A stretch of 64,000 nt of DNA from a virus (Duplodnaviria > Heunggongvirae > Uroviricota > Caudoviricetes): IMG/VR virus record IMGVR_UViG_2926661365_000002; one strand, written 5' to 3'. The first letter of the stretch is position 1. Each line of letters opens with the position of its first letter. The translations under genes were made by a program, and so were the position numbers. Of the stretch, positions 20,293 through 52,521 are shown in pieces. The notes below the pieces were generated by a model. The model did not search any database. It saw only the letters and a list, made by a program, of their open reading frames with translations, and was not told where the DNA came from.

Positions 20293-20519
20293 CAGCGCCC
20301 CCTTGAAAATGTGGTGAAGATGACGTGCTTGCGGCGTTTCCCGCGAACGGCTGTGGTCAGCTCGTCCAGCACGGCTTTCATTTCGTCCATCGACCGATAC
20401 GTGACGTCACGCTCTCGGAAGCGGACACGAGACGCGCCGGAGTAGTAGGCCTCGGCAAGATCCCGGAGGAACGCCTGCTTCTCTTCCGGCGACAGTTCGT
20501 CGAGGAAAGGATTGCTCAT
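20292..20519 (-). CDS. Head-tail joining protein gpW-like
   Basis: 75 aa between the terminase large subunit and the portal, as in the lambda A-W-B order. Confidence 0.5.
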   Translation of the reverse strand: MSNPFLDELSPEEKQAFLRDLAEAYYSGASRVRFRERDVTYRSMDEMKAVLDELTTAVRGKRRKHVIFTTFSRGR

Positions 20520-22579
20520 CCCCAGATACTCCCGCTGCCCTGCATCCAGCCCCCACCAGGCTTTCGCTTGGCGGGAGGCGGAGTGGACTGTTGCTGTTGC
20601 TGTGGCTCGGGCTCCGGCGCGCGGCGTCTAGCCGGCCCGTCTCGAAGCTTGCCGAGGTTGAGGATCATTTGGGCTGCGCCCTGCATGGCCTCGCAGTCGA
20701 GGTAGTGGTTGTCCCTCGCCTTCTGGACCCACTTGACCTTGCCCCCAGGGGCACGGGTCCGGGCTTCCGAGACGATCTGCCGGCAGTAGTCCTCGGTGAT
20801 GTCCTCCGGCAGGTGCCAAGCTCCGGGCTGATCGTCGAGCCACCTCACCCGCTGCTGGACCCACGACTTGAAATAGTCGGTGTCCAGGCGGAGTAGCTCG
20901 AGTCCCTGCTTGAACTCCTTGCCGTCGATTTTCACGTCGATCTTGCTGCTGACGATCGGCTTCCGCATCGTGGTCGACGAACCCTTCGTCGCTCGGACGA
21001 GGTTCGGGAACCGACGGGCGAAGGCGTAGACGCGGTGTTCCGGTACCAGGAACTTCTTGCCGGGGCGGAAGCCGGAGTCGACGAGGGCGAGCCGGATGGG
21101 CAGGCCGTCGTATGTGCCGGTGACCACCTGGGCCAGATCGTTCCAGACATCGAGCTCCTCGGTCGGGCCGTACAGCTGATCAGCGTCGATCAGCCAGGAC
21201 GTGCCGAATGCTCCCCACCCTCGAACCGTGTAATAGATCCGGTCCTTCTGGACGTCGGCGGTGAGCGTCAGGAGGCGGACACCTTCTGGCACTTCCCGCA
21301 TGCGGTAGTCCGGCAGCGCGCGGTCCATGACCTCGCCCCACTCGGGAACCGCTCCACCGCCGGGTGAGTAAAGCTCGCCAAAGCCCTGATTTTTAACGGA
21401 CTGGATAGCGTTCGGATCACCCGATCGGACGGCCTCAACGTAGCGTGAGGCGCGCTCACCCCACGAGACAAAGGGAGAGCAGAGACCTGAAACCCAGAAG
21501 CTTATGGTGGTGCTCTCAGGCGGCAGGCCGTCGACAATCCCACCGGGCAGGATCTTCTGACCGGGCGCGACGTAGACGCCGTGCTCGTTCATCCATTCCT
21601 TGGCGAGGTAGTTCGAGTTGGTCACGGTGACCGGGTCGTTCTCCTTGATCACGCACCCGTTGGTGCAGACAAGGTGAGCCGTGCGCTTGGCCAACGAGGC
21701 GCTGGAGGGCATCTCTCTGCCGTGCTCGTCGACCGGCTTATCCCACCCCAGGCACTGAAACCTCGGGATGAAGAACTCGCCGCAGTGAGGGCACGGCCAT
21801 GCCCAATGGTACTTCGTGCCGGTCAGCCAGAGACGCCAGATAACCGACTGGATTTCCTCCGGGTCGCTGTCGGCCCAGAACTCAAGACCGCTCTCGGGAT
21901 CGCGCTCCACATCGGTGCTCCCCAAGCTCGGGGTTGAGGTGATGGCATGGACGAAGTCGGCGTAGCTATCGCCGCGGGCGTCGATCAGGCCGATCGGGTT
22001 ACCCTGACCGTTGAGCTGCGCCATCATCTCGTCGGCTTCGTCCGTCAGCGCCAGGCCGAACGGGTCGGACTTGAGGGCCGTCGAGGATCGACCGTGGGCC
22101 AGACGAACCGGCACACCGTTGATCAGCTTGCGGGTTACCTTCTGCCTGCTCTTCGGAGCGCACCGGTCGACCAGGCAGGTGTTCTGCATCAGGTCTTCCA
22201 TGCGCGGAGCCCACTGCTCCACCAGGAACTGGCGGGACGGGCCGGCATAGATCATCGGTACCGGCGAGGTGTCGAGGCGCTCACCCATGATGTCGAGCAG
22301 GGTTTCAGACTTGCCCGACTGGGCCGACACAACCATGACGGCGCGCTTGTGCGTCTTGGCATGAACCGCCATGGCGAACGGGATCATGTAGGGCGTGACC
22401 TTCGGCTCTCTCGGGCCGGGCTTGCCGGATGTCGAAGGATAGGTCCGGTTCTCTCTCGCCCACTGGACCGGGTTAGTCCTCGGTCTCGGCCTCAGAAGCC
22501 TCGCTGCCGACTCGAAGAGTTTGGAGACGTTTGATTTGGCGATCTGCCAATCGGAGCCGTCCTCGATCGATGATTTCAT
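20516..22579 (-). CDS. Terminase large subunit (lambda GpA family)
   Basis: 687 aa. It has a P-loop-like VVSAQSGKSETLLD and the size and context of GpA. Confidence 0.85.
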   Translation of the reverse strand: MKSSIEDGSDWQIAKSNVSKLFESAARLLRPRPRTNPVQWARENRTYPSTSGKPGPREPKVTPYMIPFAMAVHAKTHKRAVMVVSAQSGKSETLLDIMGERLDTSPVPMIYAGPSRQFLVEQWAPRMEDLMQNTCLVDRCAPKSRQKVTRKLINGVPVRLAHGRSSTALKSDPFGLALTDEADEMMAQLNGQGNPIGLIDARGDSYADFVHAITSTPSLGSTDVERDPESGLEFWADSDPEEIQSVIWRLWLTGTKYHWAWPCPHCGEFFIPRFQCLGWDKPVDEHGREMPSSASLAKRTAHLVCTNGCVIKENDPVTVTNSNYLAKEWMNEHGVYVAPGQKILPGGIVDGLPPESTTISFWVSGLCSPFVSWGERASRYVEAVRSGDPNAIQSVKNQGFGELYSPGGGAVPEWGEVMDRALPDYRMREVPEGVRLLTLTADVQKDRIYYTVRGWGAFGTSWLIDADQLYGPTEELDVWNDLAQVVTGTYDGLPIRLALVDSGFRPGKKFLVPEHRVYAFARRFPNLVRATKGSSTTMRKPIVSSKIDVKIDGKEFKQGLELLRLDTDYFKSWVQQRVRWLDDQPGAWHLPEDITEDYCRQIVSEARTRAPGGKVKWVQKARDNHYLDCEAMQGAAQMILNLGKLRDGPARRRAPEPEPQQQQQSTPPPAKRKPGGGWMQGSGSIWG

Positions 22580-23018
22580 TGAGCCTATGCCGCTCTGTCG
22601 GCACCCCTGTTATCTCGGCAGGCAAGCCCGACAGGTAGGCGTTGAAGTCACCCACGATCTCCTGGAGGACGCCGTCAGCCTCCTCGAGCGGGATCAGCTC
22701 CCTCTCTTTGCGGGCACGGGCCATCCGGATCTCGAGGGTCTTCTCGTCCCTGAGTTTGTCGATGCTGGCGCTACCGGTTTTCTTTTCGCTGCCGTCCTTC
22801 AAAAAATCGCAGTAGGCCCGGACGGTGTTGGCCACATGGAACTTGCCCTTCTCGGCGGTGATCACCCCGTCGCTCTGCAGCTTTCGAAGGAAGCGCGACG
22901 AGATCTTGAGGACCGCCGCCATGTCGATCTGAGAGAGCATCTGCTCTGCAACCGGGATGGCCTTCGCCGCCTTGGCCTTCGGCTTCGGCTTCGTCTTGGG
23001 GGCTGGCGCCTTCGCCAT
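22473..23018 (-). CDS. Terminase small subunit (start reassigned to the internal ATG, MAKAPAPK...)
   Basis: It is immediately upstream of terL. It has a Lys/Ala/Pro-rich N-terminus and an HTH-like segment. The ATG at 23016-23018 abuts the stop of the upstream gene. Confidence 0.55.
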   Translation of the reverse strand: MAKAPAPKTKPKPKAKAAKAIPVAEQMLSQIDMAAVLKISSRFLRKLQSDGVITAEKGKFHVANTVRAYCDFLKDGSEKKTGSASIDKLRDEKTLEIRMARARKERELIPLEEADGVLQEIVGDFNAYLSGLPAEITGVPTERHRLNEIIDRGRLRLADRQIKRLQTLRVGSEASEAETED

Positions 23019-23704
23019 CAGAACCTCATCAGCTTGGTGATGCGCTTCGTCACGGCCTCCTCGAGCACGGCCGGAGCCTGCGCCATGAAGATCGAGGCGG
23101 AGTCGCCATCTGGGATTTCTTCTCGGAGAGCCGGACCAAACAGCCGGCGGATCTTGCCCCACTTCGGCCCGGTGCCCGTCGATGCGAACCGGCCTCTTGC
23201 CGATCGAGGCTGCCAGGATCGGCTGTCATGGGTCCAAAGGACTCGAGGGGCTTTCACCCCCGCCTCCCTGGAGCGCATCATGTAGAAGCCGCCCTTGGTT
23301 GCGAACGATCGCTTGAAGATGCGTGGGTTGTTCCAGACGTCCGACCTGACCGAGCCTCGATCGCTGATCTGGATCTTGCTGTTTAGCCTGGACTTAACAG
23401 CGACCGACCGGAGGCCCTTGTAGTTCTCGGCCCGGATACCGCCCTTCACCGAGAAGATGTCGTAAGCCAGGATGCCCTGCCGACCGACGCCCCGGGTGTT
23501 GGCCACCACATAGGACTGGTACTGACCGGCCTTGAGGTTCATCTGCTTGGTGACCGTCTTCTGGACCACCGTCTTCATTTTTCGGCCGGCGTCGACAACG
23601 CCCCGGTACATCTCTCGCTGCGCTCTGGGGGATGCCAACTGCTCTGCAGCTCGAGCCATCCTGGTGACCAGCAAAAGGTTGGAGCCGCTCCGTACAACGT
23701 ACAC
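23018..23704 (-). CDS. Basic hypothetical protein, first gene of the late operon
   Basis: 228 aa rich in K/R/S. No catalytic motif was recognised. The real start may be the internal MARAAEQL. Confidence 0.4.
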   Translation of the reverse strand: MYVVRSGSNLLLVTRMARAAEQLASPRAQREMYRGVVDAGRKMKTVVQKTVTKQMNLKAGQYQSYVVANTRGVGRQGILAYDIFSVKGGIRAENYKGLRSVAVKSRLNSKIQISDRGSVRSDVWNNPRIFKRSFATKGGFYMMRSREAGVKAPRVLWTHDSRSWQPRSARGRFASTGTGPKWGKIRRLFGPALREEIPDGDSASIFMAQAPAVLEEAVTKRITKLMRF

Positions 23705-23989
23705 GTTTCAGCCCTCCATCGGCATGCAACCGGCCACCCACCAAACGACCGGTTTGTTCTACAGATCGCCCCGGTACCGGTGGCCTATTGGAATTTCGTT
23801 TCTATCCGCCCGGTGGCATCACCCCATTTCGTTGCGCGATCTGAGCAAATCCATTCCTCGCCCGGCCGGCCCCGGATCCAGGAATCGGAAGCCTGAAATT
23901 GAAAACACCGAAATCGCTCAAATGCTGCGCTGCCGCTCGCCCGCGGTCGGGGGGTCTGGGGGGCGAAGAACCTAAGGCCGCCGGGGGGT

Positions 23990-24500
23990 AGGCAGGGGCG
24001 GCGGGCCATGGGCGGCAGGGGTGGCGGGGGCTGGCTGGCAGGCTAGGCAGGCGGCAGGCGTGGCCATGGCGGCAGGCGGCGGCAGGGGGTGACCGGCGGC
24101 AGGCTGGCAGGGGTGGACGGCAGGCAGGCAGGCGGTAGGCTGGCAGGCTGGCAGGACGTGGCCACGCTAGACCGACGGCAGGCAGGCAGGCAGGCGGCAG
24201 GACATGGCCGGGGGTACGCTTCCCCCCTTCCCTGCCTATCGGCACGGCTTCCCCCTTCCTTCCCCCCGTGGGGGGCGGAGACAAGCGGCGGACTGTGAAG
24301 GGCTGGCAGGTGCTGGCCAGCTGTCACCGGCTGGCAGATATTGGCGACGCTATGCGGGTTATTGCCTGCCTCTTCTGGGCACCCCCGCCGGGGCTTTGTC
24401 GGCTGGCAGGATCTGGCCACGGCTTCCCCCTTCCCCCGCCGGGGTTACCGACAGGGGCTGGATATGGTGCGCCGTGGCCACGCTATGCGGCGGCAGGCTT
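23990..24500. repeat. GC-rich iteron-like repeat array (GGCTGGCAGG units, GTGGCCACGCTATGCGG units, GGCTTCCCCCTTCC units)
   Basis: Direct reading finds GGCTGGCAGG at least 6 times and the palindromic core GTGGCCAC in acGTGGCCACgcta twice. A longer unit ggctgg(cag)atat..gg..acgctatgcgg occurs twice. GGCAGGC runs are also present. Confidence 0.6.
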
Positions 24501-24539
24501 GGCAATGTCGGGGGAGAATCGGCGGCGGTTTCTAGTCGA

Positions 24540-25790
24540 GATTCGCCGTTATTGATTCGCTTTTAGACTCGCGGCGGTTGAAACGTCAACGGCGCTAAAT
24601 CCGGCGGGTTTAGACCTGCTAATGCGGGGTGATTTGGGTGATTTGCCGAATAGGGTAATTCAATCTGAATAGAGGCCGGTTAGCGTACCTGGCGATTGCC
24701 TGCCTGTTTTCATTGGCTTTTCTGGCTTGGCTTGGCTGGCTTTCAGGTGTAGCAAGCATGCAGATTTATTTCAATCAAATCAGGTGCTTAGGTTCTCGGT
24801 CAATTCGTTACGTATGTTTTTCAAGCGAAACGTATTGACGGCAATGCATACCGCATTTATGAAGGGGGCAAGCCAAACGAAATTTTGGTGACTGACAAAC
24901 CGGTTCCGGGGTTTCGGCCTTGCGGTTTGGGTTCTTTGACAAGCAGGTATCAGGGTCTCAGATCCGCCATGTAGTGACGGGGGTTTGCCGTAAGGTTTTC
25001 CTCTTGAGTGAAAAGGCGGGTTAGATACTTGGGTATCAATGCACCGGTCATTGGCAAAGTTAGCTTTGCGGTCCCTATGTAGCGGGATGACTTAATAATA
25101 GCACATTATCAAATGTTCCGGATCTGAGATCTATATGGAAGACACGATAAGGCCGGTTCATTAACCGGCTGAACGGCGGTGACTGTATAGGCAACCTTAC
25201 CTGTGAAGAGATACAGGGTATTGACGTTCGCTCTAAATGCGAACTACAAGCGAGATGATTGACGGAAAGATAGATAACCACGGTTGGCAATACAGGGCAG
25301 GCAATAGCCTTTTGAAGTTTCGAAAAAACGCCTTTCAACATAGGGAAGTCCCTAGCCGCGGCTAGATAGTTCTGTGAACAATTCGTTAGCACGTATCGAA
25401 TTGAGCAGAACGGAAACCAATCGGCAAAACGTGCAACAAGTTTCTAAGACCGGCTAGAGCAATCTGGCCGGTCTTTCACGTTTCAAGACCTAAGCCGGTT
25501 AGGCGGTTTAGGCGTTGAAACGAAGGGAAACGGAAATGATCGGTTATCTAAACAAGACCAAAAGCGGCTTTGTTCTCACTATCTGCGATGCACCTTGCAC
25601 CGGGGAAGCGTTCAACAATGCGGAAAAGGTCGCGGTTAGCGGCAAGCGGGAAGCGAACCGGATTTGCAATGAAAGGGGGGTGAAGCCTCATAACTGGTGA
25701 CCTTGACAGTCTTAAGCCCACGGTTAGCGCCGTGGGCTTAGGGAAGCCAAGGGCTTCAACCGGCAATCATGCCACATAGGAAACAACGAC
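24540..25790. other. AT-rich non-coding island (about 45% GC versus about 65% flanks); candidate cos/pac, origin or regulatory RNA region
   Basis: No ORF of 60 aa or more with native codon usage. GGCTT direct repeats at 24700-24745. Hairpins at 25458-25484 and 25715-25740. It lies between the late-operon start and the plus-strand block. Confidence 0.5.
25536..25700 (+). CDS. Small ORF (54 aa) inside the AT-rich island
   Basis: Start is GGAAATG. The ORF is flanked by two hairpins. Its composition is atypical for this genome. Confidence 0.2.
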   Translation: MIGYLNKTKSGFVLTICDAPCTGEAFNNAEKVAVSGKREANRICNERGVKPHNW

Positions 25791-25791
25791 A

Positions 25792-26388
25792 ATGACGAAA
25801 TTCACCATCATCACCGGCAAGGCTCTTGCATCGGCTATCAAGGGCCGCGCGGCTCAGGTCGAAACGTTCAAGGAACGTGAACATCAGCTTGCGACTTCCT
25901 GCCTTCACCATGTCGAGCAGCATTCGGACGTCGTCCACCTGAACGGCCTTCTGTCCGTCACCCCGGCCAACTATCGGCGCGGTCTGGTCTTGTGGGCCGT
26001 GGCCTACGGCAAGGTGACCTATGACGCAAAGGAACGGGTTTTCGCCTTTGCCAAGGGCAAGAAGTCGGATCTTCCGGGGGCGGAGTCCGTCGCACCTGCC
26101 GACTATGAAAAGGCGGCGAAGACCGGCGGCGACAAGACGGCGAAGACCCTCATGGAACGGCTGGAAAACGCGGCGGCGAAGACGATCAAGGATGAAGCCG
26201 CCACGCCGGAAGATCTCGCCCTTGCCAAGGCGCTGGCTGCCTTCTTGCAGCACCACAAGCGCGCCGTCGTGGTCGACATGGTCAAGGCCAAGGCCACGGC
26301 GAAGACCCCGGCCAAGGCCAAGGCCCCGGCCAAGCCTGCCCCGGTCGCAACGCAGGAAGCCCCGCAGCTCGATCTGGTCGCAGCCTGA
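25792..26388 (+). CDS. Hypothetical protein with a histone-H1-like AKAK/PAKP C-terminal tail
   Basis: 198 aa. The C-terminus reads KAKATAKTPAKAKAPAKPAPVATQEAP. It is the first gene of the plus-strand block. Confidence 0.5.
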   Translation: MTKFTIITGKALASAIKGRAAQVETFKEREHQLATSCLHHVEQHSDVVHLNGLLSVTPANYRRGLVLWAVAYGKVTYDAKERVFAFAKGKKSDLPGAESVAPADYEKAAKTGGDKTAKTLMERLENAAAKTIKDEAATPEDLALAKALAAFLQHHKRAVVVDMVKAKATAKTPAKAKAPAKPAPVATQEAPQLDLVAA

Positions 26389-29371: not shown

Positions 29372-29587
29372 ATGCCTGTTGAGATCCTGCCCGCCCGCCT
29401 TCAAGTCGAGGGACGCCCGACCGTCGTCCGGCTCGAGCCCATGACCAAGGCACCGCCCGCCGCCCCGCTTCGCACCCTCGTCCTGATGGTGGCGATCCTC
29501 GTCCTCGTCCTGGCCGCAGCCCTCGCCGCCTGCGCCGGCTACATCATCGAGTGGGCCGAGCGCTCCGCCTATTCGGAGCAGGCATGA
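29372..29587 (+). CDS. Small membrane protein (a start at motif ATG 29351 is also possible, in frame)
   Basis: Contains the TM segment LRTLVLMVAILVLVLAAALAACAGYII. Preceded by taacccgccacccATGG. Confidence 0.4.
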   Translation: MPVEILPARLQVEGRPTVVRLEPMTKAPPAAPLRTLVLMVAILVLVLAAALAACAGYIIEWAERSAYSEQA

Positions 29588-31149
29588 CCATGAACGCTAT
29601 CGTCACCCGCCAAACCGTCGAGCAGATCTGCGCCTTCCGCGACCAAGCAATCAAGCAATTCAGCAACGCATTCGAGAAGATCGAGGAGGCGTCCGACGCC
29701 ATCCGCCAAGCCCATAAGCTCTGGGAAGGGGCCGCTCCGGGCAAGCCCGGCTATTACTCGAACCTCAATCAGGAGGTGGAGTCGTTCTCGAATGCGGTGA
29801 GCCTGCCCGATCGCGACATCTACCTGCGCACAGCCAAGCGCCTGATCGACGTTACCGTGTGGACCCATGTGATCCAGCACACCGGCATTGAAAACCTGAT
29901 GGACAAGGAAGCGAAGGATCAGCTTCGATCGCAGATGCGGTATGTCCCCGAGCGCCGCGGCCGAGATGGCGAGATCATCAATCAGGATGAGATCGACCGC
30001 ATGCTTCCCGAGGTCACCCCCGAGAATGTCTATGCCACGCTCGAACGTTTTCAGGCGGACGCGGAGATGATCTTCCGGCGCGGCATCGTCAACGTCTTCT
30101 CGAAGCTCGACCGCCGCTTCCGCTCACACGACGGGTTCAAGGTCGGCTCACGCATGATCCTCGACTACCTCTGCAACAGCGACGGTTACTTCAGTACAAC
30201 GAGCGACCGCGCCGACCGTCTGAGTGACGTCGAGCGGGCGTTCCGAGTGCTGGAGGGGAACGCCGATCACGCCGGGTTCTACGGCATTGCCAATAAGATC
30301 TATCGCGAGCGGCGGAACTTCGAACGCGCCCGGTCTGAGCATGAGAACGCATACTTCAAGGTGCGCATCTTCATGAACGGCAACGCCCACCTCTGGTTTA
30401 CTCGCAAGGATCTGGTGGAAAGGATCAACAAGATCCTCGCCGAGCACTACGGGGAAACGCTGGGCGATGGCATGACCAAGGAAGCCGATCCGCTCAAGGA
30501 TGTGAAGACCACACCCGCCAAGCGTTATGGCTTCTTCCCCACGCCGGACGCGGCAGCCGAAGAAGTCTTCCGCAAGCTCAACACTTGGCAGTCCGCAACC
30601 AACGATCGCCTGCGCATCCTCGAACCGTCCGCCGGCACCGGCCAACTGGCCCGCCGCGCAGCCACCGTCGGCAACGATCTGGCAGAGTGGCAGCGCGAGA
30701 AGTTCAAGGACCACCGCTTCGACCACGCCGTCGACTGCATCGAGATCCAGCCGCACCTGGCCCACCAGCTGGAGGCGGAAGGCATCTACAATAGGGTGAC
30801 CTGCGCTGACTTCCTCACCGTCAAGCCCGACCCGTCCCGCCTTTACGACCGAGTGGTGATGAACCCGCCGTTCGACCGCGAGCGTGACATAGACCATGTG
30901 ATGCACGCTTTCGAGTTCCTGAAACCTGAGGGCCAGCTCGTCGCCATCATGTCGGCGGGCACCGAGTTTCGCGAGACGAAGAAGTCGATCGCCTTCCGCG
31001 ACCTGATGGAAAAGCTCGGCGCAGAATGGTCAGACCTACCCGCTGGCTCGTTCGCAGAGTCCGGCACCTACTGCAACACCGGCATCCTTGTGGTCTGGAA
31101 GAGCGGCAAGCCGCGTCGTTACGGTCGCCCCACCTGGGAAAAGCTCTAA
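29584..31149 (+). CDS. N6-adenine DNA methyltransferase (gamma-type motif order) fused to an approximately 340-aa N-terminal domain of unknown function
   Basis: FFPTP (motif X-like), EPSAGTGQL (motif I, FxGxG) and MNPPF (motif IV, NPPF) lie in the C-terminal approximately 180 aa. The N-terminal approximately 340 aa is unassigned. Start overlaps the previous stop (ATGA). Confidence 0.8.
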   Translation: MTMNAIVTRQTVEQICAFRDQAIKQFSNAFEKIEEASDAIRQAHKLWEGAAPGKPGYYSNLNQEVESFSNAVSLPDRDIYLRTAKRLIDVTVWTHVIQHTGIENLMDKEAKDQLRSQMRYVPERRGRDGEIINQDEIDRMLPEVTPENVYATLERFQADAEMIFRRGIVNVFSKLDRRFRSHDGFKVGSRMILDYLCNSDGYFSTTSDRADRLSDVERAFRVLEGNADHAGFYGIANKIYRERRNFERARSEHENAYFKVRIFMNGNAHLWFTRKDLVERINKILAEHYGETLGDGMTKEADPLKDVKTTPAKRYGFFPTPDAAAEEVFRKLNTWQSATNDRLRILEPSAGTGQLARRAATVGNDLAEWQREKFKDHRFDHAVDCIEIQPHLAHQLEAEGIYNRVTCADFLTVKPDPSRLYDRVVMNPPFDRERDIDHVMHAFEFLKPEGQLVAIMSAGTEFRETKKSIAFRDLMEKLGAEWSDLPAGSFAESGTYCNTGILVVWKSGKPRRYGRPTWEKL

Positions 31150-35244: not shown

Positions 35245-36234
35245 ATGAACCTCAAGTCCGCAGCCATCGTCGCATCCACCTACCTCACGCACGACATCCC
35301 CTTCATGCTCTGGGGTGCGCCCGGCGTCGGCAAGTCCTCGCTTGTCGAGCAGCTCGCTGCCAACCGCAATCAGAAGGTCATCGACTTCCGCGCCTCGACC
35401 CGCGATGCCGTCGCCCTCATGGGCCTGCCGGATCTGCACGGTGAGACGACCAAGTGGAAGGTGCCCGACGAGTTCCCGCAGGTTGAACGTGATGGCCCCG
35501 AGGGCATCCTCTTCCTCGACGAGATCAACGCAGCCGCCCCCTCCATGCAGGCTGCGATGTTCGGCCTGGTCCTCGATCGCCGCGTCGGCGATTACACCCT
35601 GCCGCCCGGCTGGCGCGTCATCGCCGCCGGCAACCGCCAGTCTGACAAGGCTGCCGCCCAGCGCATGCCGTCGGCCCTCGCCAACCGCTTCGCTCACATC
35701 GACATCGAGCCCGATCTCGACACCTCGGTCGACCACTTCTACTCGATCGGCATTGACCCTCGCCTGATCGCCTTCCTCCGCTTCCGCCCCGGGCTGCTGC
35801 ACATGATGGACGGTCAGGATCTCCGGGCATTCCCCACGCCCCGCTCCTGGGAGCAGGTGTCCAAGGTGCTGAACATCGACGATCACCTCCGGCTGCAGGC
35901 CGTGTCCGGCATCGTCGGCCCCGGCCCCGCGGCTGAGCTGGAAGGATTCCTCCGGGTCTACCTGACGCTGCCGTCGATCGACCGCATTCTCCGCTCGCCG
36001 GAGTCGACCGAGGTTCCCACCGAAACCAGCGCCCGCTTCGCCCTCTCGGCAGCCTTGGCCCGCAAGGTGGACGCCTCCACCATCGAGCCGGCCTACACCT
36101 ACATGAAGCGCCTGCCCCGCGAGTATCAGATCATGTTCATGGTCGACGCCGTCCGGCACGACAACTCGCTCACCTCGACCATGACCTTCATCAACTGGTG
36201 CGCCGCCAACCGCGACGTCACGATCGGGGCCTGA
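35245..36234 (+). CDS. MoxR-like AAA+ ATPase
   Basis: Walker A GAPGVGKS, Walker B ILFLDEIN, sensor AAGN, about 330 aa. Preceded by taaccccgcaatcatgc. Confidence 0.8.
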   Translation: MNLKSAAIVASTYLTHDIPFMLWGAPGVGKSSLVEQLAANRNQKVIDFRASTRDAVALMGLPDLHGETTKWKVPDEFPQVERDGPEGILFLDEINAAAPSMQAAMFGLVLDRRVGDYTLPPGWRVIAAGNRQSDKAAAQRMPSALANRFAHIDIEPDLDTSVDHFYSIGIDPRLIAFLRFRPGLLHMMDGQDLRAFPTPRSWEQVSKVLNIDDHLRLQAVSGIVGPGPAAELEGFLRVYLTLPSIDRILRSPESTEVPTETSARFALSAALARKVDASTIEPAYTYMKRLPREYQIMFMVDAVRHDNSLTSTMTFINWCAANRDVTIGA

Positions 36235-36237
36235 GCC

Positions 36238-36591
36238 ATGGCCGTCGTCTGGATCACCGGCCCCATTGGCTACCAAAAGTCCTGGCGCCTCCTCGAGGAC
36301 GGGCGCCGCATCGTCGACGCCTGCCGCTGGGAGTTCGTTGGGATGGAGGACGACGGCACCTTCCGCCGCTGGAGCCTGCGTTTCAGCACTGAAACACGGG
36401 CCTTCACCGCCAACTCCCTCGCCGTCAAAGACTGGGAGAAGACGAAAGCCAAGGAGCTGGGCGAGATCTATCGCCCGGCTGCCGTCCTCCGATCGATGCT
36501 GCCCAAAGGCTCCACAGCCAAGGCGCTCGAGGCCATGCTTGGTGATGCCGGCGTGGCCGAGGCGATCGGTATCTCCCTCACCCAGAGGTGA
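36238..36591 (+). CDS. Small paralog-family protein (member 2)
   Basis: TRAFTANS core; C-terminus GVAEAIGISLTQR. Confidence 0.5.
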   Translation: MAVVWITGPIGYQKSWRLLEDGRRIVDACRWEFVGMEDDGTFRRWSLRFSTETRAFTANSLAVKDWEKTKAKELGEIYRPAAVLRSMLPKGSTAKALEAMLGDAGVAEAIGISLTQR

Positions 36592-36594
36592 CCC

Positions 36595-36939
36595 ATGCTG
36601 ATCGCCACCATCAAACACATGCTCGGCCCGTTCCGTAATGGCTTCGGGCTGGGCGGGCAGTCATGGCTGTTCATCGGGACGGATGAGGCTGGCAGACACC
36701 ACGTCTGGAAGCTCCACTTCGACTACAAGACCAGGCGCTTCGTCGCCCGGACGGTCCAGCACAATGACGCTCAGCGCTACGCCGAGCAGATGGCAACCGG
36801 CGACCTGTTCAAGTCGGACCATGTCCACCCGGAGTTCATCGTGGATCTCCGCAAGACCACCGCGCAAAACCTCAAAGCCCTCCTCACTGACGAGGACGTG
36901 GCCGACGCCCTGGGGAAAGCGCTCACCTACAAGGGATGA
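36595..36939 (+). CDS. Small paralog-family protein (member 3)
   Basis: N-terminus MLGPF; TRRFVART core; C-terminus LTDEDVADALGKALTYKG. Confidence 0.5.
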   Translation: MLIATIKHMLGPFRNGFGLGGQSWLFIGTDEAGRHHVWKLHFDYKTRRFVARTVQHNDAQRYAEQMATGDLFKSDHVHPEFIVDLRKTTAQNLKALLTDEDVADALGKALTYKG

Positions 36940-37346
36940 CCATGCCAATTTTCAGGAAGGTGCTCGGCCCCTTCAAGCCGATGTTCGAGACCAGCAACGG
37001 TCGCGTCGACAAGTTGCAGTGGCACTTCATCGTCATCCGCGATGACTACACCACCTGCCACTACACCCTCCAGTGCTACCCGCAGACCAACAAATACACG
37101 GCGGTCAACGGTGACCAGAACGAGGACAGCCTCGGCCGCAAGGTCAGGGCGATGGGCTCTGTCATCTACGGCAGCAGGAAGCCGACCGTCGTCCACGAGC
37201 GGATGTTCATCGAGCACGACACGACACCCGTCTCCTCCGGCGACACCATCTCGAACATCCTCAAGCAGCACCTGCGAACGGAAGACATCGCCAACATCAA
37301 CGCGGCCCGGCTGACCGGCAAGCTCGCCATCGCACTGAAAGGATAA
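36936..37346 (+). CDS. Small paralog-family protein (member 4)
   Basis: N-terminus VLGPFKPMF; C-terminus RTEDIANINAARLTGKLAIALKG. Confidence 0.45.
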   Translation: MTMPIFRKVLGPFKPMFETSNGRVDKLQWHFIVIRDDYTTCHYTLQCYPQTNKYTAVNGDQNEDSLGRKVRAMGSVIYGSRKPTVVHERMFIEHDTTPVSSGDTISNILKQHLRTEDIANINAARLTGKLAIALKG

Positions 37347-37349
37347 CCC

Positions 37350-38549
37350 ATGACCTCCGCGTCCAACCACATTCTCCAGGCTCGCACCGCGCTGCTCTGG
37401 GACTCGCCCTTCTTCGGCGTCCTCTCCATGCACCTGCTCGAGGTCGACGCCACCGACGACCCAACGGTCGACACCATGGCGACCGACGGCAAGCATCTGT
37501 TCTACGACAGCAAGTTCGTCCTCTCCCTGAGCAAGGCTGAGATGATCTTCGTCCTGGCTCACGAGATCATGCACAACGCCCTCGAGCACCACCTCCGCCG
37601 GCAGAACCGCAACCCCGGCCTTTGGAATGTGGCCTGCGACTTCGCCATCAACCTCGAACTCACCAAGGCCTTCGAGGAAGCCAAGGGCGTGAAGCCCAAG
37701 ATGCCAGCCGGTGGCCTGATCGATGCGCAGTTCGAGGGGATGAGCGCGGAGGAGATCTACCGCCACCTGCAACAGGAGATCGAGCAGAACGGCCACGCCA
37801 TGGCCGGCGGCGTCAAGATCGAGCCCGAACCCGGCCCGGATCTCGGCGGTTGCGGCGGCATCAAGGATGCCTGTGACCCCAGCGACGAGGCTGCCGTCAA
37901 CCACGCTCGAGCCGAGCTGCAGGCCCAGGTTCGCGGCGCTGCCATGGCGGCGGAGGGTGCGCAGGCTGGCTCCCTGCCCGGTTCCATTCAGCGTCTCATC
38001 GATCGCCTTCTCCAGCCCAAGGTTGACTGGCGCGCGATCCTTCGCAAGTTCATCGACGGCGTCGCCACCCGTGACTATGCCTGGTCGACGCCCAACCGCC
38101 GGCTGATCCCCCATCGCATCATCACGCCGAGCCTCGTGTCCGACTCCATCAGCCATCTGGTTGTGGCGGTCGACACCTCCGGCTCCATCAACGGCGAGAT
38201 CCTCAACGCCTTCGCTGCCGAGATCCGGGCAGCCTTTGGCGACGGCGCTGTCGATCGGATGTCGGTGCTCTATGCCGACGCCAAGGTGCAGCACGTCGAG
38301 GAGTTCGAGGCCGGCGACGAACTCGACCTTCACCCCAAGGGTGGCGGCGGCACTGCCTTCTCCGACACCTTCCGGATGATCCGCGATCGGTACCAGACCG
38401 GCGTCGCGACGATCTATCTCACCGACCTTTTCGTCTGCGACTACGGCGACGAACCCGACATGCCTGTCCTCTGGGCCGTGCATGGCCGGACCAAGGACTT
38501 CGACAATCTCTCCGTTCCCTTCGGCGAGCTCGTCAACATTTCCGACTAA
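37350..38549 (+). CDS. VWA-domain protein with N-terminal HExxH (HEIMH) zincin-like domain, DUF2201-type MoxR partner
   Basis: 399 aa. LAHEIMHNALEHH sits in the N-terminal half. A VWA-like block VVAVDTSGSINGEIL (MIDAS-like DxSxS) sits in the C-terminal half. The MoxR gene is upstream. Confidence 0.6.
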   Translation: MTSASNHILQARTALLWDSPFFGVLSMHLLEVDATDDPTVDTMATDGKHLFYDSKFVLSLSKAEMIFVLAHEIMHNALEHHLRRQNRNPGLWNVACDFAINLELTKAFEEAKGVKPKMPAGGLIDAQFEGMSAEEIYRHLQQEIEQNGHAMAGGVKIEPEPGPDLGGCGGIKDACDPSDEAAVNHARAELQAQVRGAAMAAEGAQAGSLPGSIQRLIDRLLQPKVDWRAILRKFIDGVATRDYAWSTPNRRLIPHRIITPSLVSDSISHLVVAVDTSGSINGEILNAFAAEIRAAFGDGAVDRMSVLYADAKVQHVEEFEAGDELDLHPKGGGGTAFSDTFRMIRDRYQTGVATIYLTDLFVCDYGDEPDMPVLWAVHGRTKDFDNLSVPFGELVNISD

Positions 38550-43818: not shown

Positions 43819-44394
43819 ATGAATCGAAACTCCATCCTTCTCTCCGCCTTCCTTGCTCTCTCCGCTACCACCGCCATTGCCGGACCCGATGCACCCGTGT
43901 GCCAGGAACCCGGCTGGTCGGTAGGCAAGGTCTTTGCCGGATGCTTCGGCCGCGCCGAGGTTGGTGGCGGCGGAAGCGTCCTTCCCGTCTCCGCTACCCC
44001 CGCTCCGGTGACCCCCGTCCCGGTCGATCCCACGCCGACCGACCCGACCGATCCGGGCGATGGCGAAACCCCTGTTGACCCCACCGATCCGGGCGACGGT
44101 GACGGCGACAACGGTGACGGCGATGGCGACGGCGAAACCCCGACCGACCCGACGGACCCGGGCGATGGCGACGGTGACAACGGCGGTGAGCCGACTGACC
44201 CCGGCGCAGGCGACGGCGATGGCGACGGCGGTACCGGCGGCGACGGTGACACTGGCGGCGATGCCGGCGACGGCGATACCGGCTCCGACACGGGCGACAC
44301 GGGCGGTTCCGACGGCGATGATGCCGGCGGCGACACGGGTGGCGATACCGGCGGCGACGCTGGCGGCGACACGGGTTCCGACACCACCGAGTAA
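43819..44394 (+). CDS. Secreted Asp/Gly/Thr/Pro-rich repetitive acidic protein
   Basis: Sec signal MNRNSILLSAFLALSATTAIA-GP. Repeats TDPTDPGDGDGDNGDGDGDGETP and GGDTGGDAGGDTG. Good RBS AAGAGG. Confidence 0.6.
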   Translation: MNRNSILLSAFLALSATTAIAGPDAPVCQEPGWSVGKVFAGCFGRAEVGGGGSVLPVSATPAPVTPVPVDPTPTDPTDPGDGETPVDPTDPGDGDGDNGDGDGDGETPTDPTDPGDGDGDNGGEPTDPGAGDGDGDGGTGGDGDTGGDAGDGDTGSDTGDTGGSDGDDAGGDTGGDTGGDAGGDTGSDTTE

Positions 44395-46445: not shown

Positions 46446-47849
46446 TCAGACCCCGTGATCCAGATCAGGCATCTCATCGAATGCCATGGTTGCCTGATAG
46501 CCGCCGATGTCGGCGTAGCGGGTGGTTGCCCCATCCCAGTGGAACACGCGCCTGTCGCGCGGCGTCCCAAAGCGGTCCTTCAATTTATACACTTCGATTC
46601 TCCCCTCGTGCATTCGGAGTTGTGCTTGGTGGTCTTCCTTCGCCTTCGCTTGGTTGGTGCGGGGCGGGTTCTTTTTCAGCCATTCGTGGCGGTTGAAATT
46701 CGCGAGCATCAGGTCGGCGTGTTCTTCGAGAGAGCCGCCATAGAAGTCTTCCATCTCCGGCTCCGGCGTCTCCTTCTGACGGGCTGCCTTGGTGAACTGG
46801 CAGAGCGCGATGACGACGCACCCGAGATCCTTGGCCAGCGACTTGAGGTCTCGAGCGTTCTCATAGGCGCGCTCGACTGGGTCCATGCGGTTCTTGGTGT
46901 GGCGCTCGATGAGCTTGAGGTGGTCGACGGCCAGCATGCGGAGGCCGAACTTCCGCTTGTGCGCATAGGCGCGGCTGCGGATCTGGTTGATATCCATCTT
47001 CGACGGGGCAACGATGCGCAGCTTGCGATCGGAGAACTTTGCCTGCGCTGCGATGAGGGCCTCGAACTGCTCGTCTCTGAGCCCGCGCATGATGTCCCTG
47101 GACTTGACCCCTGTGTCCCCCGCCACTGAGCGCGCGACCAGCGAGGTGTTTTCCATTTCGAGTTCGAAGAGGGTGGAAGGGTCGGCGGTGCTGGTGAAGA
47201 GGAGCTGCTGCATGGCGAAGGCGGTCTTGCCGGAGCCCGGGCCCCCACCCCAGAGGACGAGCGACCCCGGCGGGAAGAACCCGATCATCTCCTCCAGCCC
47301 CCGCAGGCAGGGTGCCAGGGCGATTCCCTTGCCCGCGCTATTCGATGCCGTGTGAACGATCTGAGCCAGCGTTGAGGACACCGTGCTCTCGTGCTCGATC
47401 TTCGCCTCGCGCGAGATGTCGGCCAGTCTCTCGGATGCGCGATCGACAATCTGGTCAGCGTCGGCTTTGGGATTGTTGGCGGTCTTGATCATGTTCTCCG
47501 CCAGCGCAATCACCCGGCGGCGCGTGGCTGCAGAGCGCAGCTCGAACGCATAGTCCCGAAGCGGGAGGTTCTCCTCGCGCGCTGCCACATGCAGCAGCAT
47601 CGAGAGGTAGGCCTCCGGGTCTTTCCCCTCAGAGAGAGAACCGATTCTGCCGGCGACGATGTGCGGGCGGATGGCGCGAGCGTCCTGGGCCAGCTCGTTG
47701 ATCACGACGTAGATCTTCTGGTGATCCTCGGACGCGAAGAGATCCATGTTGAGGATGTCGATCACATCCCAGAAGGAGTCCTCGTTGAACAGGATCGCGC
47801 CTAGGACGATCTTCTCGATCTCGATGTTCTTGGTGATGTCGATGGTCAT
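46446..47849 (-). CDS. dnaB: Replicative DNA helicase, DnaB family
   Basis: 467 aa. DnaB N-terminal domain (IEIEKIVLGAILFNEDSF) plus Walker A GGGPGSGKT and the RecA-like C-terminal domain. Confidence 0.85.
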   Translation of the reverse strand: MTIDITKNIEIEKIVLGAILFNEDSFWDVIDILNMDLFASEDHQKIYVVINELAQDARAIRPHIVAGRIGSLSEGKDPEAYLSMLLHVAAREENLPLRDYAFELRSAATRRRVIALAENMIKTANNPKADADQIVDRASERLADISREAKIEHESTVSSTLAQIVHTASNSAGKGIALAPCLRGLEEMIGFFPPGSLVLWGGGPGSGKTAFAMQQLLFTSTADPSTLFELEMENTSLVARSVAGDTGVKSRDIMRGLRDEQFEALIAAQAKFSDRKLRIVAPSKMDINQIRSRAYAHKRKFGLRMLAVDHLKLIERHTKNRMDPVERAYENARDLKSLAKDLGCVVIALCQFTKAARQKETPEPEMEDFYGGSLEEHADLMLANFNRHEWLKKNPPRTNQAKAKEDHQAQLRMHEGRIEVYKLKDRFGTPRDRRVFHWDGATTRYADIGGYQATMAFDEMPDLDHGV

Positions 47850-48979: not shown

Positions 48980-49560
48980 TAGAACAGGCTTTCCTGCTGG
49001 TATGCCCGACCGCGATCGAAGGCATAGCCCGGCTCGTGAACGATGCGGGTGTAGTCGAGAATGCAGAGGGCCTCGGCCTCGTCCGCTGAGCCGTAGCTCC
49101 AGCCTCGAGCGTCGCAATATTCCTTCGCCCGCTCCTTGAACCACTTGGACCGCTCAACCTGACTGGCACCCTTCATGCTGTCCGGGGTGCGCGTCTTGGT
49201 GTGGGTCTTCGCGCGCCAAGACTGGATGGCCACAAAGTCAGGCTGCCGCAGCGCCATGATATGGCAGAGGGTCTGAGCGTGGGTCGGCCAGCCCGACGAG
49301 AACATGACCTGCTCGGCGTCAATCCGGTCGTCATCGCCATGGGTGACGATCGTCATCAGCTCGATGCAGACCAGCGGGTCCGGCATGCTTTCCAAGGTGC
49401 GCCGCATGAACTGGGTGAATGTGAAATAGGCCTCGCCTGGGGTCTCCTGGTTGAACCTCCAGGTTCCGTGCTTGAGCTTCTCTCCGCCTGCGAGGCACGA
49501 AGCCCAGCCCATATTTCTGCCGGGGTCGAGGACGAGGTAACTGCCGGGTGCGCGTGCCAT
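48979..49560 (-). CDS. RuvC-like Holliday junction resolvase
   Basis: YLVLDPGRNMGWA (RuvC motif I DPG) and SADEAEALCI (D.ADALA motif). Confidence 0.55.
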   Translation of the reverse strand: MARAPGSYLVLDPGRNMGWASCLAGGEKLKHGTWRFNQETPGEAYFTFTQFMRRTLESMPDPLVCIELMTIVTHGDDDRIDAEQVMFSSGWPTHAQTLCHIMALRQPDFVAIQSWRAKTHTKTRTPDSMKGASQVERSKWFKERAKEYCDARGWSYGSADEAEALCILDYTRIVHEPGYAFDRGRAYQQESLF

Positions 49561-52390: not shown

Positions 52391-52521
52391 GGTTCCTCTC
52401 AGGAATGCGGAATGTATCGTTTCAGAACGCACTACATCTACGTTACGCATCGCTCAACGTCAACAAAAATGCACAACGAATAGCAACAACAGGGTATAAA
52501 TGCAGAGTAAGGAGTCACCCT
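52391..52521. promoter_or_regulatory. Divergent promoter/operator switch region between Cro-like and CI-like genes
   Basis: 131-nt AT-rich spacer containing the inverted repeat ACGTTacgcatcgctcAACGT and a TATAAAT box. Confidence 0.4.

What the first reader, a model, noticed from the sequence alone, without database searches (positions are those of the whole stretch)
23705..25790. Iteron-like GC-rich repeat array plus 1.2 kb AT-rich ORF-free island at the head of the late operon (candidate cos/pac, ori or regulatory RNA locus)
Between the first late gene and the plus-strand block lies about 2.1 kb with no credible coding capacity. It splits into two parts. The first (about 23990-24500) is extremely GC-rich and is built from reiterated units: GGCTGGCAGG at least 6 times, a palindromic GTGGCCAC core in the 17-mer GTGGCCACGCTATGCGG twice, GGCTTCCCCCTTCC twice, and runs of GGCAGGC. 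The second (24540-25790) is AT-rich, about 20 points below genome GC, with GGCTT direct repeats and two stable hairpins. Its position next to the terminase genes suggests terminase-binding cosB/pac repeats. Iterons of a replication origin or a transcribed regulatory RNA are alternatives.
Basis: seen in the sequence. Interest (0 to 1): 0.65.

Follow-up and report, generated by a model that had tools for sequence, protein, structure and literature searches.

The report
Prophage cos site plus control region
The gene-free 2 kb next to the terminase genes is the cis-acting hub of a Rhizobiales-type temperate phage: it holds a lambda-like cohesive-end (cos) site, a probable late promoter whose long C-rich repeat leader is the "iteron array", and an AT-rich, strongly folded control region for the opposite operon, so it is interesting in detail but of a known kind.

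Summary
Window 23705-25535 has no coding periodicity. It splits into a G-rich repeat array (23985-24510, GC up to 0.78) and an AT-rich part (GC 0.44-0.53).

The cos site is in the interval, but it is not the array. It is a separate 95-bp block (23881-23975) that stays conserved in prophages whose flanking non-coding DNA has diverged. The block resembles the lambda, VP882 and phiHAP-1 end junctions: a cosQ-like TAGGTTCTTC, a hypervariable spacer, then CCGCGGG-N5-GCAGCGCAG.

The array lies on the side of cos away from the terminase genes. Prophages with the same cos core can lack it.

It sits between cos and a promoter-like motif, TTGnnn-N13/14-GAGTC. That motif is present in all 11 non-redundant relatives with this architecture and occurs once in the window (24566-24589, minus strand). 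The array is therefore most likely the C-rich leader of the late operon, enlarged by slippage.

The AT-rich part folds far better than shuffled sequence (z = -6.5). In relatives it carries a covarying 110-nt hairpin absent from Rfam; this phage keeps only a stub.

An iteron origin is not supported. Physical DNA ends and transcripts remain untested.

The parts
23777..23833 (-). Two direct repeats (CCGGTGGC-N8-ATTTCGTT on the + strand), 33 bp apart, between the cos core and the first late gene. They are candidate TerS-binding (cosB R-like) sites.
   Evidence: D1, 71% identity. L034 has related GCGCAACGAAATG / GCGGATAGAAATG repeats at the same place. Their position matches lambda cosB (PMC4856287). 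Binding is inferred.
23881..23924 (-). Conserved downstream part of cos. In late sense it reads ATTTGAGCG, then T-tracts, then TTCCGATTCC. It corresponds by position to lambda I2 and R3. It contains a conserved GANTC site (GAATC, 23882-23886).
   Evidence: It is invariant or nearly so in the five relatives found through TerL alone and in the wider set. MAFFT aligns it with lambda bp 13-70 and with the VP882 left end. The GANTC at +85..+88 from the cos motif is present in 10 of 11 relatives.
23925..23946 (-). cosN-like core, CCGCGGG-N5-GCAGCGCAG in late sense. The predicted nick region gives a cohesive end either at 23931-23942 (GGGCGAGCGGCA) or in the adjacent spacer.
   Evidence: CGCGGG also flanks the cohesive end in lambda and VP882. 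The distance from the cosQ-like motif to CCGC|GGG is 28-31 nt here, against 29-30 nt to the nick in lambda and VP882 (read). Nick positions are inferred, not shown.
23947..23964 (-). Hypervariable G/C-only spacer. It is C-rich in late sense here and G-rich in most relatives.
   Evidence: 15-20 nt, with a different sequence in almost every prophage, between two invariant motifs.
23965..23974 (-). cosQ-like motif TAGGTTCTTC (late sense).
   Evidence: It is invariant in the relatives found through TerL. It aligns with lambda GGGTCCTTTCC (by my recollection, this is lambda's cosQ heptamer GGGTCCT) and with AGGTACTTC of VP882 and phiHAP-1. The same motif paired with CCGCGGG recurs in many unrelated IMG/VR contigs.
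23985..24510 (-). The 'iteron-like' array. It carries GGCAGG/GGCTGGCAGG units (periods 4 and 8), about six GGC(T/G)GGCAGG-N3-TGGCC composites, and three pyrimidine blocks GGCTTCCCCCTTCC. On the late-sense strand it is C-rich (C/G 1.45). Proposed role: transcribed leader of the late operon.
   Evidence: It lies between the promoter-like motif and cos. Both strands fold worse than shuffles (z +2.1 and +2.5). Relatives have a shorter GC-rich, mostly C-skewed stretch with different repeat units. A short-read assembly of the same phage breaks exactly at 23985-24280.
24516..24570 (.). Cluster of four GANTC (CcrM-type) sites within 55 nt.
   Evidence: The window has 88 GANTC against about 219 expected, or 1.4 per kb. 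Four lie at 24516, 24540, 24554 and 24566. L114 has a similar cluster.
24566..24589 (-). Late promoter-like element TTGACG-N13-GAGTC, pointing toward cos and the structural genes.
   Evidence: TTGnnn-N13/14-GAGTC is present in all 11 non-redundant relatives with this architecture, 260-596 nt upstream of cos. It is the only occurrence in the 64-kb window. It is absent upstream of cos in prophages that lack the architecture. Promoter activity is inferred.
24800..24863 (+). AT-rich operator/promoter-like segment. It carries ACGTAT twice (24810, 24830), GTTTTTCAAG (24816-24825) and TTGACG-N17-TATGAA (24835-24863).
   Evidence: Relatives carry GTTTTCAAT and (A)ACGTA(T/C) repeats in a GC 0.20-0.39 spike at the same place. 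The tool's strict sigma-70 scan found nothing, so the promoter is a reading of the sequence.
24920..24983 (+). Conserved GGGTTCTTTGA motif plus a stub of the long hairpin that relatives carry.
   Evidence: Covariance model R1 scores 57-152 bits in the relatives but 11.3 bits here, with 85 interior positions missing.
24870..25535 (+). Strongly folded AT-rich region, a probable 5' leader or non-coding RNA of the plus-strand operon. It includes hairpins at 24878-24916, 25151-25170, 25446-25475 and 25489-25512.
   Evidence: MFE is -238 kcal/mol against -191.5 +/- 7.2 for shuffles, z = -6.5. The minus strand gives z = -5.2 with a weaker MFE. Hairpins are listed. No Rfam family matches.
25536..25700 (+). 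Small 54-aa ORF, followed by a 23-nt-arm hairpin at 25701-25752.
   Evidence: Called in the Logan assembly. Weak periodicity. No homologue in relatives. Hairpin I2.

Best explanation
The interval is the cis-acting hub of a temperate phage with a lambda-type head and packaging module and a P2-type baseplate. The phage belongs to a family widespread as integrated prophages in Hyphomicrobiales.

Cos (inferred from homology). Cos occupies 23881-23975. In the direction of the late genes it reads: a cosQ-like TAGGTTCTTC, an 18-nt hypervariable spacer, a cosN-like CCGCGGG-N5-GCAGCGCAG, a T-tract segment, then TTCCGATTCC. Further short repeats at 23777-23833 probably serve as TerS sites. The GpA-type terminase would nick within 23931-23964 to make cohesive ends.

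The array (inferred). The two flanking operons diverge, so the 23-kb structural operon needs its own promoter. The best candidate is the conserved TTGACG-N13-GAGTC at 24566-24589 (minus strand), which sits in a cluster of GANTC methylation sites. The repeat array is then the roughly 600-nt C-rich, poorly folded leader of the late transcript. That transcript must read across the joined cos, as lambda's late transcript does. The array has been enlarged here by slippage of 4- and 8-nt units. It may load Rho or act only as a spacer.

The AT-rich part (inferred). It holds operator-like repeats and a rightward promoter, followed by a highly structured leader RNA ahead of the plus-strand accessory operon.
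For: Terminase type. TerS, a GpA-type TerL (PF05876, PF20454) and a lambda-type portal lie directly downstream.

Cos block. Five relatives found only through TerL (56-73% identity) keep the gene order. They share no alignable non-coding DNA with the window except the 95-bp block 23881-23975, plus a single 46-nt match of L005 inside the AT-rich part (window 25069-25114). The block aligns with the lambda junction, the VP882 record termini and phiHAP-1. The same core occurs in 13 IMG/VR loci and 25 Hyphomicrobiales genomes, some inside Mb-sized chromosomes.

Late promoter. The promoter-like motif is in 11 of 11 relatives with this architecture, is unique in the window, and is absent from the other group.

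Array. C/G is 1.45 and the fold z-score is +2.1. C/G exceeds 1.2 in 8 of 11 relatives' leaders.

AT-rich part. z = -6.5. In relatives, RNAalifold gives -28 kcal/mol on the window's plus sense against -2 on the other strand. There are 37 pairs, 26 with compensatory changes, and 0 of 500 shuffles reach the observed covariation.
Against: No physical DNA ends and no transcripts were examined; every functional step is inferred.

The register of the nicks is ambiguous between two alignments that differ by about 12 nt.

The invariance of the cos motifs in loci found by pattern search is by construction. Only the five TerL-found relatives are an unbiased sample.

The -10 region of both proposed promoters is poor, and the consensus scan found none.

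Low leader structure is not conserved: z ranges from -3.5 to +1.6 in relatives, and C/G is about 1 in three of them. A Rho-loading role is therefore weak.

The array's composite GGCTGGCAGG-N3-TGGCC sites could still bind a protein. Nothing excludes TerS contacts on both sides of the cut, as at SPP1 pac.

The window's own copy of the structured element is truncated.
Confidence: 0.55

Rival explanations
1. The array is a set of terminase small-subunit binding sites (cosB or pac-type recognition repeats) that recruit terminase to the adjacent cut site.
For: It abuts the cos core, 10 nt from TAGGTTCTTC. It contains about six 18-19-nt composite sites in one orientation (families D3 and D4). Repeat units differ between relatives, as TerS specificity sites might. 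SPP1 TerS is known to bind on both sides of its cut site (my recollection).
Against: The array is on the side of cosN away from the terminase genes; lambda cosB is on the terminase side (PMC4856287). Prophages with the same cos core lack any such array; homologous p228 and TerS genes were confirmed only for L065 and L095, whose upstream DNA is too short to judge. Spacing of the sites is irregular: 46, 109, 28 and 72 nt. Better-placed small repeats exist at 23777-23833.
Confidence: 0.12
2. The GC-rich repeats plus the AT-rich stretch form the lytic replication origin. The repeats would be initiator sites and the AT-rich part the unwinding element, possibly primed by a transcript.
For: The region is large and non-coding and lies between divergent operons. 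In relatives an AT spike of GC 0.20-0.39 lies beside GC-rich repeats. There is a cluster of four GANTC sites; I recall that such sites also cluster at the Caulobacter chromosomal origin. The element is strand-specific and structured. No iteron array lies next to the helicase and primase genes. RNA-based phage origins are known (PMC7157519, abstract).
Against: There are no conserved DnaA or CtrA boxes. The repeat units are 4-10 nt, irregular, and not conserved between relatives. DnaB and primase are 22 kb away, and no initiator gene adjoins the region.
Confidence: 0.13
3. The array has no sequence-specific function. It is a slippage-prone microsatellite-like expansion tolerated in a non-coding leader. 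Only the flanking cos and promoter elements matter.
For: The periods are 4 and 8, with 69-70% matches and many indels. The units differ between relatives, whose leaders are 260-600 nt long. There is no excess secondary structure. A short-read assembly of the identical phage could not cross it.
Against: A GC-rich, mostly C-skewed stretch with purine blocks is kept at this position in every relative with this architecture. That suggests at least a compositional constraint.
Confidence: 0.2

Closest known systems
Bacteriophage lambda cos (cosQ-cosN-I2-cosB), cut by gpNu1/gpA terminase
   Same: The TerL is GpA-type. The order is a cosQ-like motif, about 30 nt, a G/C-rich nick region flanked by CGCGGG, T-tracts, then TTCCG-type repeats, then the terminase genes (PMC4856287). 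The late transcript must cross the joined cos.
   Different: An extra conserved 228-aa gene lies between cos and TerS. There is no IHF consensus in this phage. The spacer is hypervariable. The late promoter is only about 600 nt from cos rather than kilobases away. Ends have not been mapped.
cos of Vibrio phage VP882 and Halomonas phage phiHAP-1 (Hapunavirus)
   Same: Their TerL proteins, at 37% and 33% identity, rank just behind Microcystis phage Mae-JY30 (46%) among named phages. They share AGGT(A/T)CTTC, C(C/T)CGCGGG and downstream TTTG.G.G motifs. The VP882 record termini repeat GGCGGCAAA directly before CCCGCGGG.
   Different: Hapunaviruses are linear-plasmid prophages with a protelomerase. 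The present family is integrated in chromosomes, and no protelomerase was seen among the window proteins I scanned (not every ORF was scanned). Hapunaviruses have no comparable repeat array or 1.3-1.8-kb non-coding region next to cos.
GcrA/CcrM-dependent methylated sigma-70 promoters of Alphaproteobacteria
   Same: The invariant GAGTC is a GANTC site lying between the -35-like TTGACG and the presumed -10. In this phage it reads CGAGTCT, which fits YGAKTCK. Three more GANTC sites follow within about 50 nt. GcrA-regulated promoters carry such sites near -20 and from +2 to +30 (PMC4647560).
   Different: This is a resemblance only. The transcription start, the methylation state and GcrA dependence were not tested. 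The host is unknown. In most relatives the site reads CGAGTCA, which departs from the consensus at the last position.
Structured cis-acting leader RNAs of phage operons (for example HK022 put; recalled from memory)
   Same: In relatives, a conserved, covarying, strand-specific stem-loop sits at the start of a long untranslated leader. In L004, the one relative read through to the first gene, hairpins with U-rich tails follow it. All this lies ahead of a long operon.
   Different: There is no sequence or Rfam relationship. The function is untested. The element is truncated in this phage.

Membership tests
lambda-type cos site (GpA-family terminase) | Lies immediately upstream of the TerS/TerL genes of a GpA-type terminase. 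| tested here: met
   TerS matches phrog_57 and TerL matches phrog_15 with PF05876/PF20454. The cos core lies 180-270 nt upstream of the first late gene.
lambda-type cos site (GpA-family terminase) | Sequence resemblance of the core to experimentally defined ends. | tested here: met
   Alignment A6 with the lambda junction, the VP882 termini and phiHAP-1. They share AGGTxCTT, CGCGGG and T-tract motifs. The register is ambiguous by about 12 nt.
lambda-type cos site (GpA-family terminase) | Conserved across related phages while the flanking non-coding DNA diverges. | tested here: met
   on relatives found by TerL and so unbiased. Searches cover the wider set, which was found by pattern and is biased for the motifs used.
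lambda-type cos site (GpA-family terminase) | Repeated TerS-binding sites between the nick site and the terminase genes. | tested here: inconclusive
   Two 24-nt direct repeats lie 33 bp apart at 23777-23833, and there is a conserved TTCCGATTCC. No binding data.
lambda-type cos site (GpA-family terminase) | Staggered nicks give complementary single-stranded ends in virion DNA. | not testable with these tools
   Needs virion DNA. The only other assembly of this phage reads through the site, as expected for prophage or replicating DNA.
iteron-type replication origin | Several 17-22-bp iterons of one sequence at regular, helically phased spacing. | tested here: not met
   The units are 4-10 nt. 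The composite sites are spaced 46, 109, 28 and 72 nt apart. The units differ between relatives.
iteron-type replication origin | Lies inside or next to the initiator or replication genes. | tested here: not met
   DnaB is at 46446-47849 and the primase at 47870-49144. The neighbouring proteins have no replication-related family.
iteron-type replication origin | Adjacent AT-rich unwinding element and host-factor boxes (DnaA, CtrA, IHF). | tested here: inconclusive
   An AT-rich stretch is present. No DnaA or CtrA box is conserved, and this phage has no IHF consensus.
any described RNA family (Rfam 15) | A covariance-model match at or near the gathering score. | tested here: not met
   The window region gives only chance-level hits (E 0.28-2.3). 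Four relatives give none in the element.
Rho-utilisation (rut) leader | C-rich, G-poor, weakly structured transcript upstream of the regulated genes. | tested here: inconclusive
   In the window C/G is 1.45 and z is +1.6 to +2.1. C/G exceeds 1.2 in 8 of 11 relatives, but structure z-scores are mixed. Rho dependence is not testable here.
GcrA/CcrM-dependent methylated promoter | A GANTC site of the YGAKTCK type near -20 or at +2 to +30 of a sigma-70 promoter (PMC4647560). | tested here: inconclusive
   CGAGTCT lies 13 nt after TTGACG, with three more GANTC sites downstream. The start site, methylation and GcrA dependence are unknown.

The most novel reading that the evidence does not exclude
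The region may be a replication- or methylation-coupled late switch specific to Alphaproteobacteria. In this reading the late promoter fires only when its clustered GANTC sites are in the right CcrM methylation state, through GcrA or a phage factor. Its C-rich repeat leader would gate read-through across cos by Rho. The neighbouring AT-rich island would encode a new class of large structured RNA that controls the accessory (anti-defence-like) operon. The evidence excludes none of this and tests none of it directly.
Probability: 0.12. Interest if true: 0.65.

Novelty: new member of a known kind. Interest (0 to 1): 0.38.

Why it matters
The work locates the packaging site of a prophage family with no isolated representative closer than 46% TerL identity. 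The family is nonetheless present in Agrobacterium, Rhizobium, Ensifer, Shinella, Brucella/Ochrobactrum, Roseibium and Bradyrhizobium genomes.

The 23-base pattern TAGGTTCTT-N12-26-CCGCGGG-N3-8-GCAGCGC is a practical marker. It can be used to orient these prophages and to predict virion ends.

Three elements are now directly testable. The first is a conserved late-promoter candidate carrying a CcrM-type site. The second is a long repeat leader. The third is a covarying structured element not present in Rfam.

For the scan itself, the lesson is that the eye-catching repeats are not the functional core. The small conserved block beside them is.

Tried and rejected
- DNA similarity to 50,697 phage records, in both near and distant modes: no match.
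- tRNA or tmRNA: none.
- Rfam: nothing meaningful in the window or in four relatives.
- Consensus sigma-70 and terminator scan: no promoter. The only terminator-like hits lie at the start of the 198-aa gene.
- Close relatives through the 228-aa protein in IMG/VR: none.
- Exact-protein look-ups of the 228-aa protein and TerL: not on record.
- A window-specific 33-mer in JGI metagenomes: no hit.
- The generic cos pattern in JGI metagenomes: four loci, all without the array architecture.
- Physical-end evidence from the second assembly: rejected. Its contigs stop at 23984 and 24281, bracketing the most GC-rich repeats rather than the cos core. That is an assembly failure, not a terminus.
- Sigma-54 promoter reading of TGGCAGG-N-TGGCC: rejected on reading the sequence, because the GG-to-GC spacing is one base short of the strict GG-N10-GC.
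- P2-type cos: the flanks are different.
- Coding potential of ORFs 23802-24284 and 24043-24420: rejected, with no periodicity and repeat periods that are not multiples of 3.
- DnaA, CtrA and IHF boxes: not conserved.
- Partition site: no par genes were seen, and relatives are integrated.
- Immunity region: more likely near 52 kb, where an HTH_3 protein lies.
- PDB sequence matches for the 228-aa and 198-aa proteins: none.
- Pfam and NCBIfam on the flanking genes, the first small genes of the plus-strand operon and a sample of others: nothing informative.
Full report
**1. What is there**

The window (62.7% GC) carries a phage.
- On the minus strand a tightly packed structural operon runs leftward from 23704. 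Its genes, in order, are:
  - a 228-aa protein of no known family;
  - TerS (22473-23018);
  - a GpA-type TerL (20516-22579);
  - a lambda-type portal;
  - a protease-capsid fusion;
  - a decoration protein;
  - P2-type baseplate genes.
- On the plus strand a block of mostly unknown genes starts with a 54-aa ORF (25536-25700) and a 198-aa protein (25792-26388, phrog_1448).
- Between the two blocks, codon-position GC periodicity collapses.
Minor corrections are given in the observation check.

**2. A second assembly**

A Logan assembly (ERR5321934) contains the same phage at 100% identity, split into two contigs.
- One contig ends at window 23984 and the other starts at 24281.
- The gap is the most GC-rich, most repetitive part of the array. 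This is an assembly failure, not a physical end.
- The first contig reads through the cos core.

**3. Relatives and the conserved block**

- Searching IMG/VR with TerL gave relatives at 50-79% identity; five of them (56-73%) reach far enough upstream to compare.
- All five keep the gene order: the 198-aa homologue, then 1.25-1.8 kb of non-coding DNA, then the 228-aa homologue, TerS and TerL.
- Their non-coding DNA is not alignable with the window except for one block, window 23881-23975, plus a single 46-nt match of L005 inside the AT-rich part.
- In late-operon orientation the block reads: TAGGTTCTTC, an 18-nt G/C-only spacer, CCGCGGG, N5, GCAGCGCAG, then ATTTGAGCG, T-tracts, and TTCCGATTCC.
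- These relatives were found through a protein, so the invariance of these motifs is unbiased.
- A pattern built from the motifs then found 13 IMG/VR loci and 25 loci in Hyphomicrobiales genomes, some inside complete chromosomes of 6-8 Mb. The family therefore consists of integrated prophages.

**4. Why this block is cos**

- After Microcystis phage Mae-JY30 (46% TerL identity), the nearest named phages are VP882 (37%) and phiHAP-1 (33%).
- The VP882 record starts GGCGGCAAAC|CCGCGGG and ends ...AGGTACTTCCCTGAAATCCCGTGCACACGGGCGGCAAA. Its termini thus repeat a 9-nt cohesive end.
- Lambda joins as ...GGGTCCTTTCCGGTGATCCGACAGGTTACG|GGGCGGCGACCT|CGCGGGTTTTCGC.
- An alignment of the junctions gives three correspondences:
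  - TAGGTTCTTC falls on lambda GGGTCCTTTCC (by my recollection, this contains lambda's cosQ heptamer) and on AGGTACTTC of VP882 and phiHAP-1;
  - the conserved CCGCGGG...GCAGCGCAG falls on the nick region;
  - the T-tract/TTCCG segment falls on lambda's I2/R3 region.
- The distance from the cosQ-like motif to CCGC|GGG is 28-31 nt in this family. The distance to the nick is 29-30 nt in lambda and VP882.
- An alternative register equates CCGCGGG with the CGCGGG that follows the overhang. That places the cohesive end in the hypervariable spacer.
- I therefore give the nick region as 23931-23964 and favour 23931-23942.
- The lambda sub-site order cosQ-cosN-I2-cosB, with cosB on the terminase side, is taken from PMC4856287.

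**5. The array is not cosB and not required for cos**

- It lies on the cosQ side of the site. In virion DNA it would be the last roughly 550 bp of the right end.
- Loci carrying the cos core fall into two groups.
  - Group A comprises the window, L004, L005/L009/L061/L120, L006, L007, L034, L052/L070, L086, L114 and L117. These have the divergent 198-aa gene and the non-coding architecture.
  - Group B comprises L019, L098, L100, L103, L105, L106, L115, L116, L121 and L122. These have the same core with ordinary-composition DNA upstream.
- Candidate TerS sites in the proper place are the two direct repeats at 23777-23833 and the conserved TTCCGATTCC.

**6. What the array sits in**

- In late sense, every group-A member has TTGnnn-N13/14-GAGTC 260-596 nt upstream of cos.
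  - In most, a polypurine tract lies just before the TTG.
  - In the window the motif is TTGACGTTTCAACCGCCGCGAGTC (24589 down to 24566).
  - It is the only match in 64 kb.
  - Group B has none.
- The flanking operons diverge, so the structural operon needs a promoter here. This is the only conserved, correctly oriented candidate.
  - It has a good -35 and a weak -10 (TCTAAA). That is compatible with the looser Rhizobiales sigma-70 consensus as I recall it, and with dependence on an activator.
- GAGTC is a GANTC site. GANTC is depleted in the window (88 against about 219 expected), yet four sites lie within 24516-24570. Another is conserved inside the cos block.
  - GcrA-regulated promoters carry YGAKTCK sites near -20 and from +2 to +30 (PMC4647560). 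CGAGTCT fits that consensus.
  - This is a lead, not a result.
- The array is thus the leader between this element and cos.
  - It is C-rich in late sense (C/G 1.45).
  - It folds worse than shuffled sequence on both strands (z +2.1 and +2.5).
- Relatives' leaders are 250-585 nt long, with C/G above 1.2 in 8 of 11. Their repeat units differ (CCTGCC, CATGCC, CCCACGTG) and their structure scores are mixed.
  - So composition, not a binding motif, is what persists.
  - The window's copy looks enlarged by slippage of 4- and 8-nt units.

**7. The AT-rich part**

- In relatives an extreme AT spike (GC 0.20-0.39) carries GTTTTCAAT and ACGTA(T/C) repeats.
- Next to it lies a conserved block that begins, in window-plus sense, GGGTTCTTTGAAAA.
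- The consensus fold of nine relatives gives -28 kcal/mol on that strand and -2 kcal/mol on the other, with invariant G-U pairs.
- On the named structure:
  - 88% of cells pair, against 69% in shuffles and 34-52% when partners are slid;
  - 26 of 37 pairs show double changes;
  - 0 of 500 shuffles reach the observed covariation score.
- A covariance model finds the element in all architecture-sharing relatives except L114 and L117 (57-152 bits). In the window it finds only a stub at 24920-24983, at 11.3 bits, with the interior deleted.
- L114 and L117 score only 12-13 bits.
- Rfam has no such family.
- The window's own 24870-25535 is nevertheless highly structured (z = -6.5), with strong hairpins before the 54-aa ORF.
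- A rightward promoter can be read at TTGACG-N17-TATGAA (24835-24863). It is not proven.
- The likely immunity region is elsewhere: an HTH_3 protein lies at 52375-53223.

**8. Origin hypothesis**

- There are no conserved DnaA or CtrA boxes.
- The replication genes are distant.
- No initiator gene lies nearby.
- On the other hand, no better iteron array exists near the replication genes. The origin therefore remains unlocated, and this reading keeps a modest probability.

**9. Verdict**

The finding resolves into a known kind of system: a lambda/hapunavirus-type cos next to a divergent control region, in an unstudied prophage family. The array itself is probably a leader of loose function. The unexpected items are the GANTC-bearing late-promoter candidate and the undescribed covarying structure in relatives.

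Noticed in passing
L004 5441-5588 (-), L052 5300-5447 (-), L006 5777-5924 (-), L086 4846-4993 (+), and others: A roughly 110-nt rod-like hairpin preceded by GGGTTCTTTGAAAA. It has 37 pairs, 26 with compensatory changes, and is strand-specific. It is absent from Rfam. It lies upstream of the 198-aa gene homologue in Rhizobiales prophages, and the window keeps only a stub.
   Followed up: yes
window, whole; cluster at 24516-24570; 23882: GANTC (CcrM) sites are depleted 2.5-fold in the phage. They cluster at the late promoter-like element, and one is conserved inside the cos block.
   Followed up: partly
window 23947-23964 compared with relatives: The spacer between the two invariant cos motifs is made only of G/C runs. 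It is C-rich in the window, L019, L095, L099, L105 and others, but G-rich in L004, L005, L006, L034 and L052, as if inverted. No explanation so far.
   Followed up: partly
L023, L024, L030, L041, L060, L066, L068, L074, L082, L090, L094 (IMG/VR): Many otherwise unrelated viral contigs carry TAGGTTCTTCC-N14-20-CCGCGGG with different downstream sequence. This suggests a much wider class of cos sites built on the same two motifs.
   Followed up: no
window 23985-24280: A short-read (Logan) assembly of the identical phage breaks exactly across this stretch. The two contigs (35,820 and 41,321 bp) plus the gap add up to about 77.4 kb, within the 72-83 kb range of the three related prophage contigs that appear complete.
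   Followed up: partly
window 44030-44390: A tandem repeat with periods 9, 12 and 24 (GGCGACGGCGAT...) lies inside ORF 43819-44394. It is a coding Gly-Asp-rich repeat, unrelated to the array under study.
   Followed up: no
window 23018-23704 (-): A conserved 228-aa gene lies between cos and TerS in all relatives (41-57% identity). It has no Pfam, NCBIfam or PDB match, only a weak phrog_27 hit. This is an unusual position for an unknown gene.
   Followed up: partly
window 50210-50779 (-), 29584-31149 (+), 52375-53223 (+), 35245-38549 (+): An MT-A70 adenine methyltransferase; a DUF4942 methyltransferase-like protein; an HTH_3 (XRE) protein that may mark the immunity region; and a MoxR-type AAA ATPase followed, three small genes later, by a DUF2201 metallopeptidase/VWA protein.
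   Followed up: no
relatives, 15-45 nt upstream of TAGGTTCTTC (for example L005, L034, L095): An IHF-consensus-like ATCAAnnnnTTR within a conserved ATCAATGGGTTAGACCCC block. The window lacks it, and the array runs up to 10 nt from the cosQ-like motif instead.
   Followed up: partly
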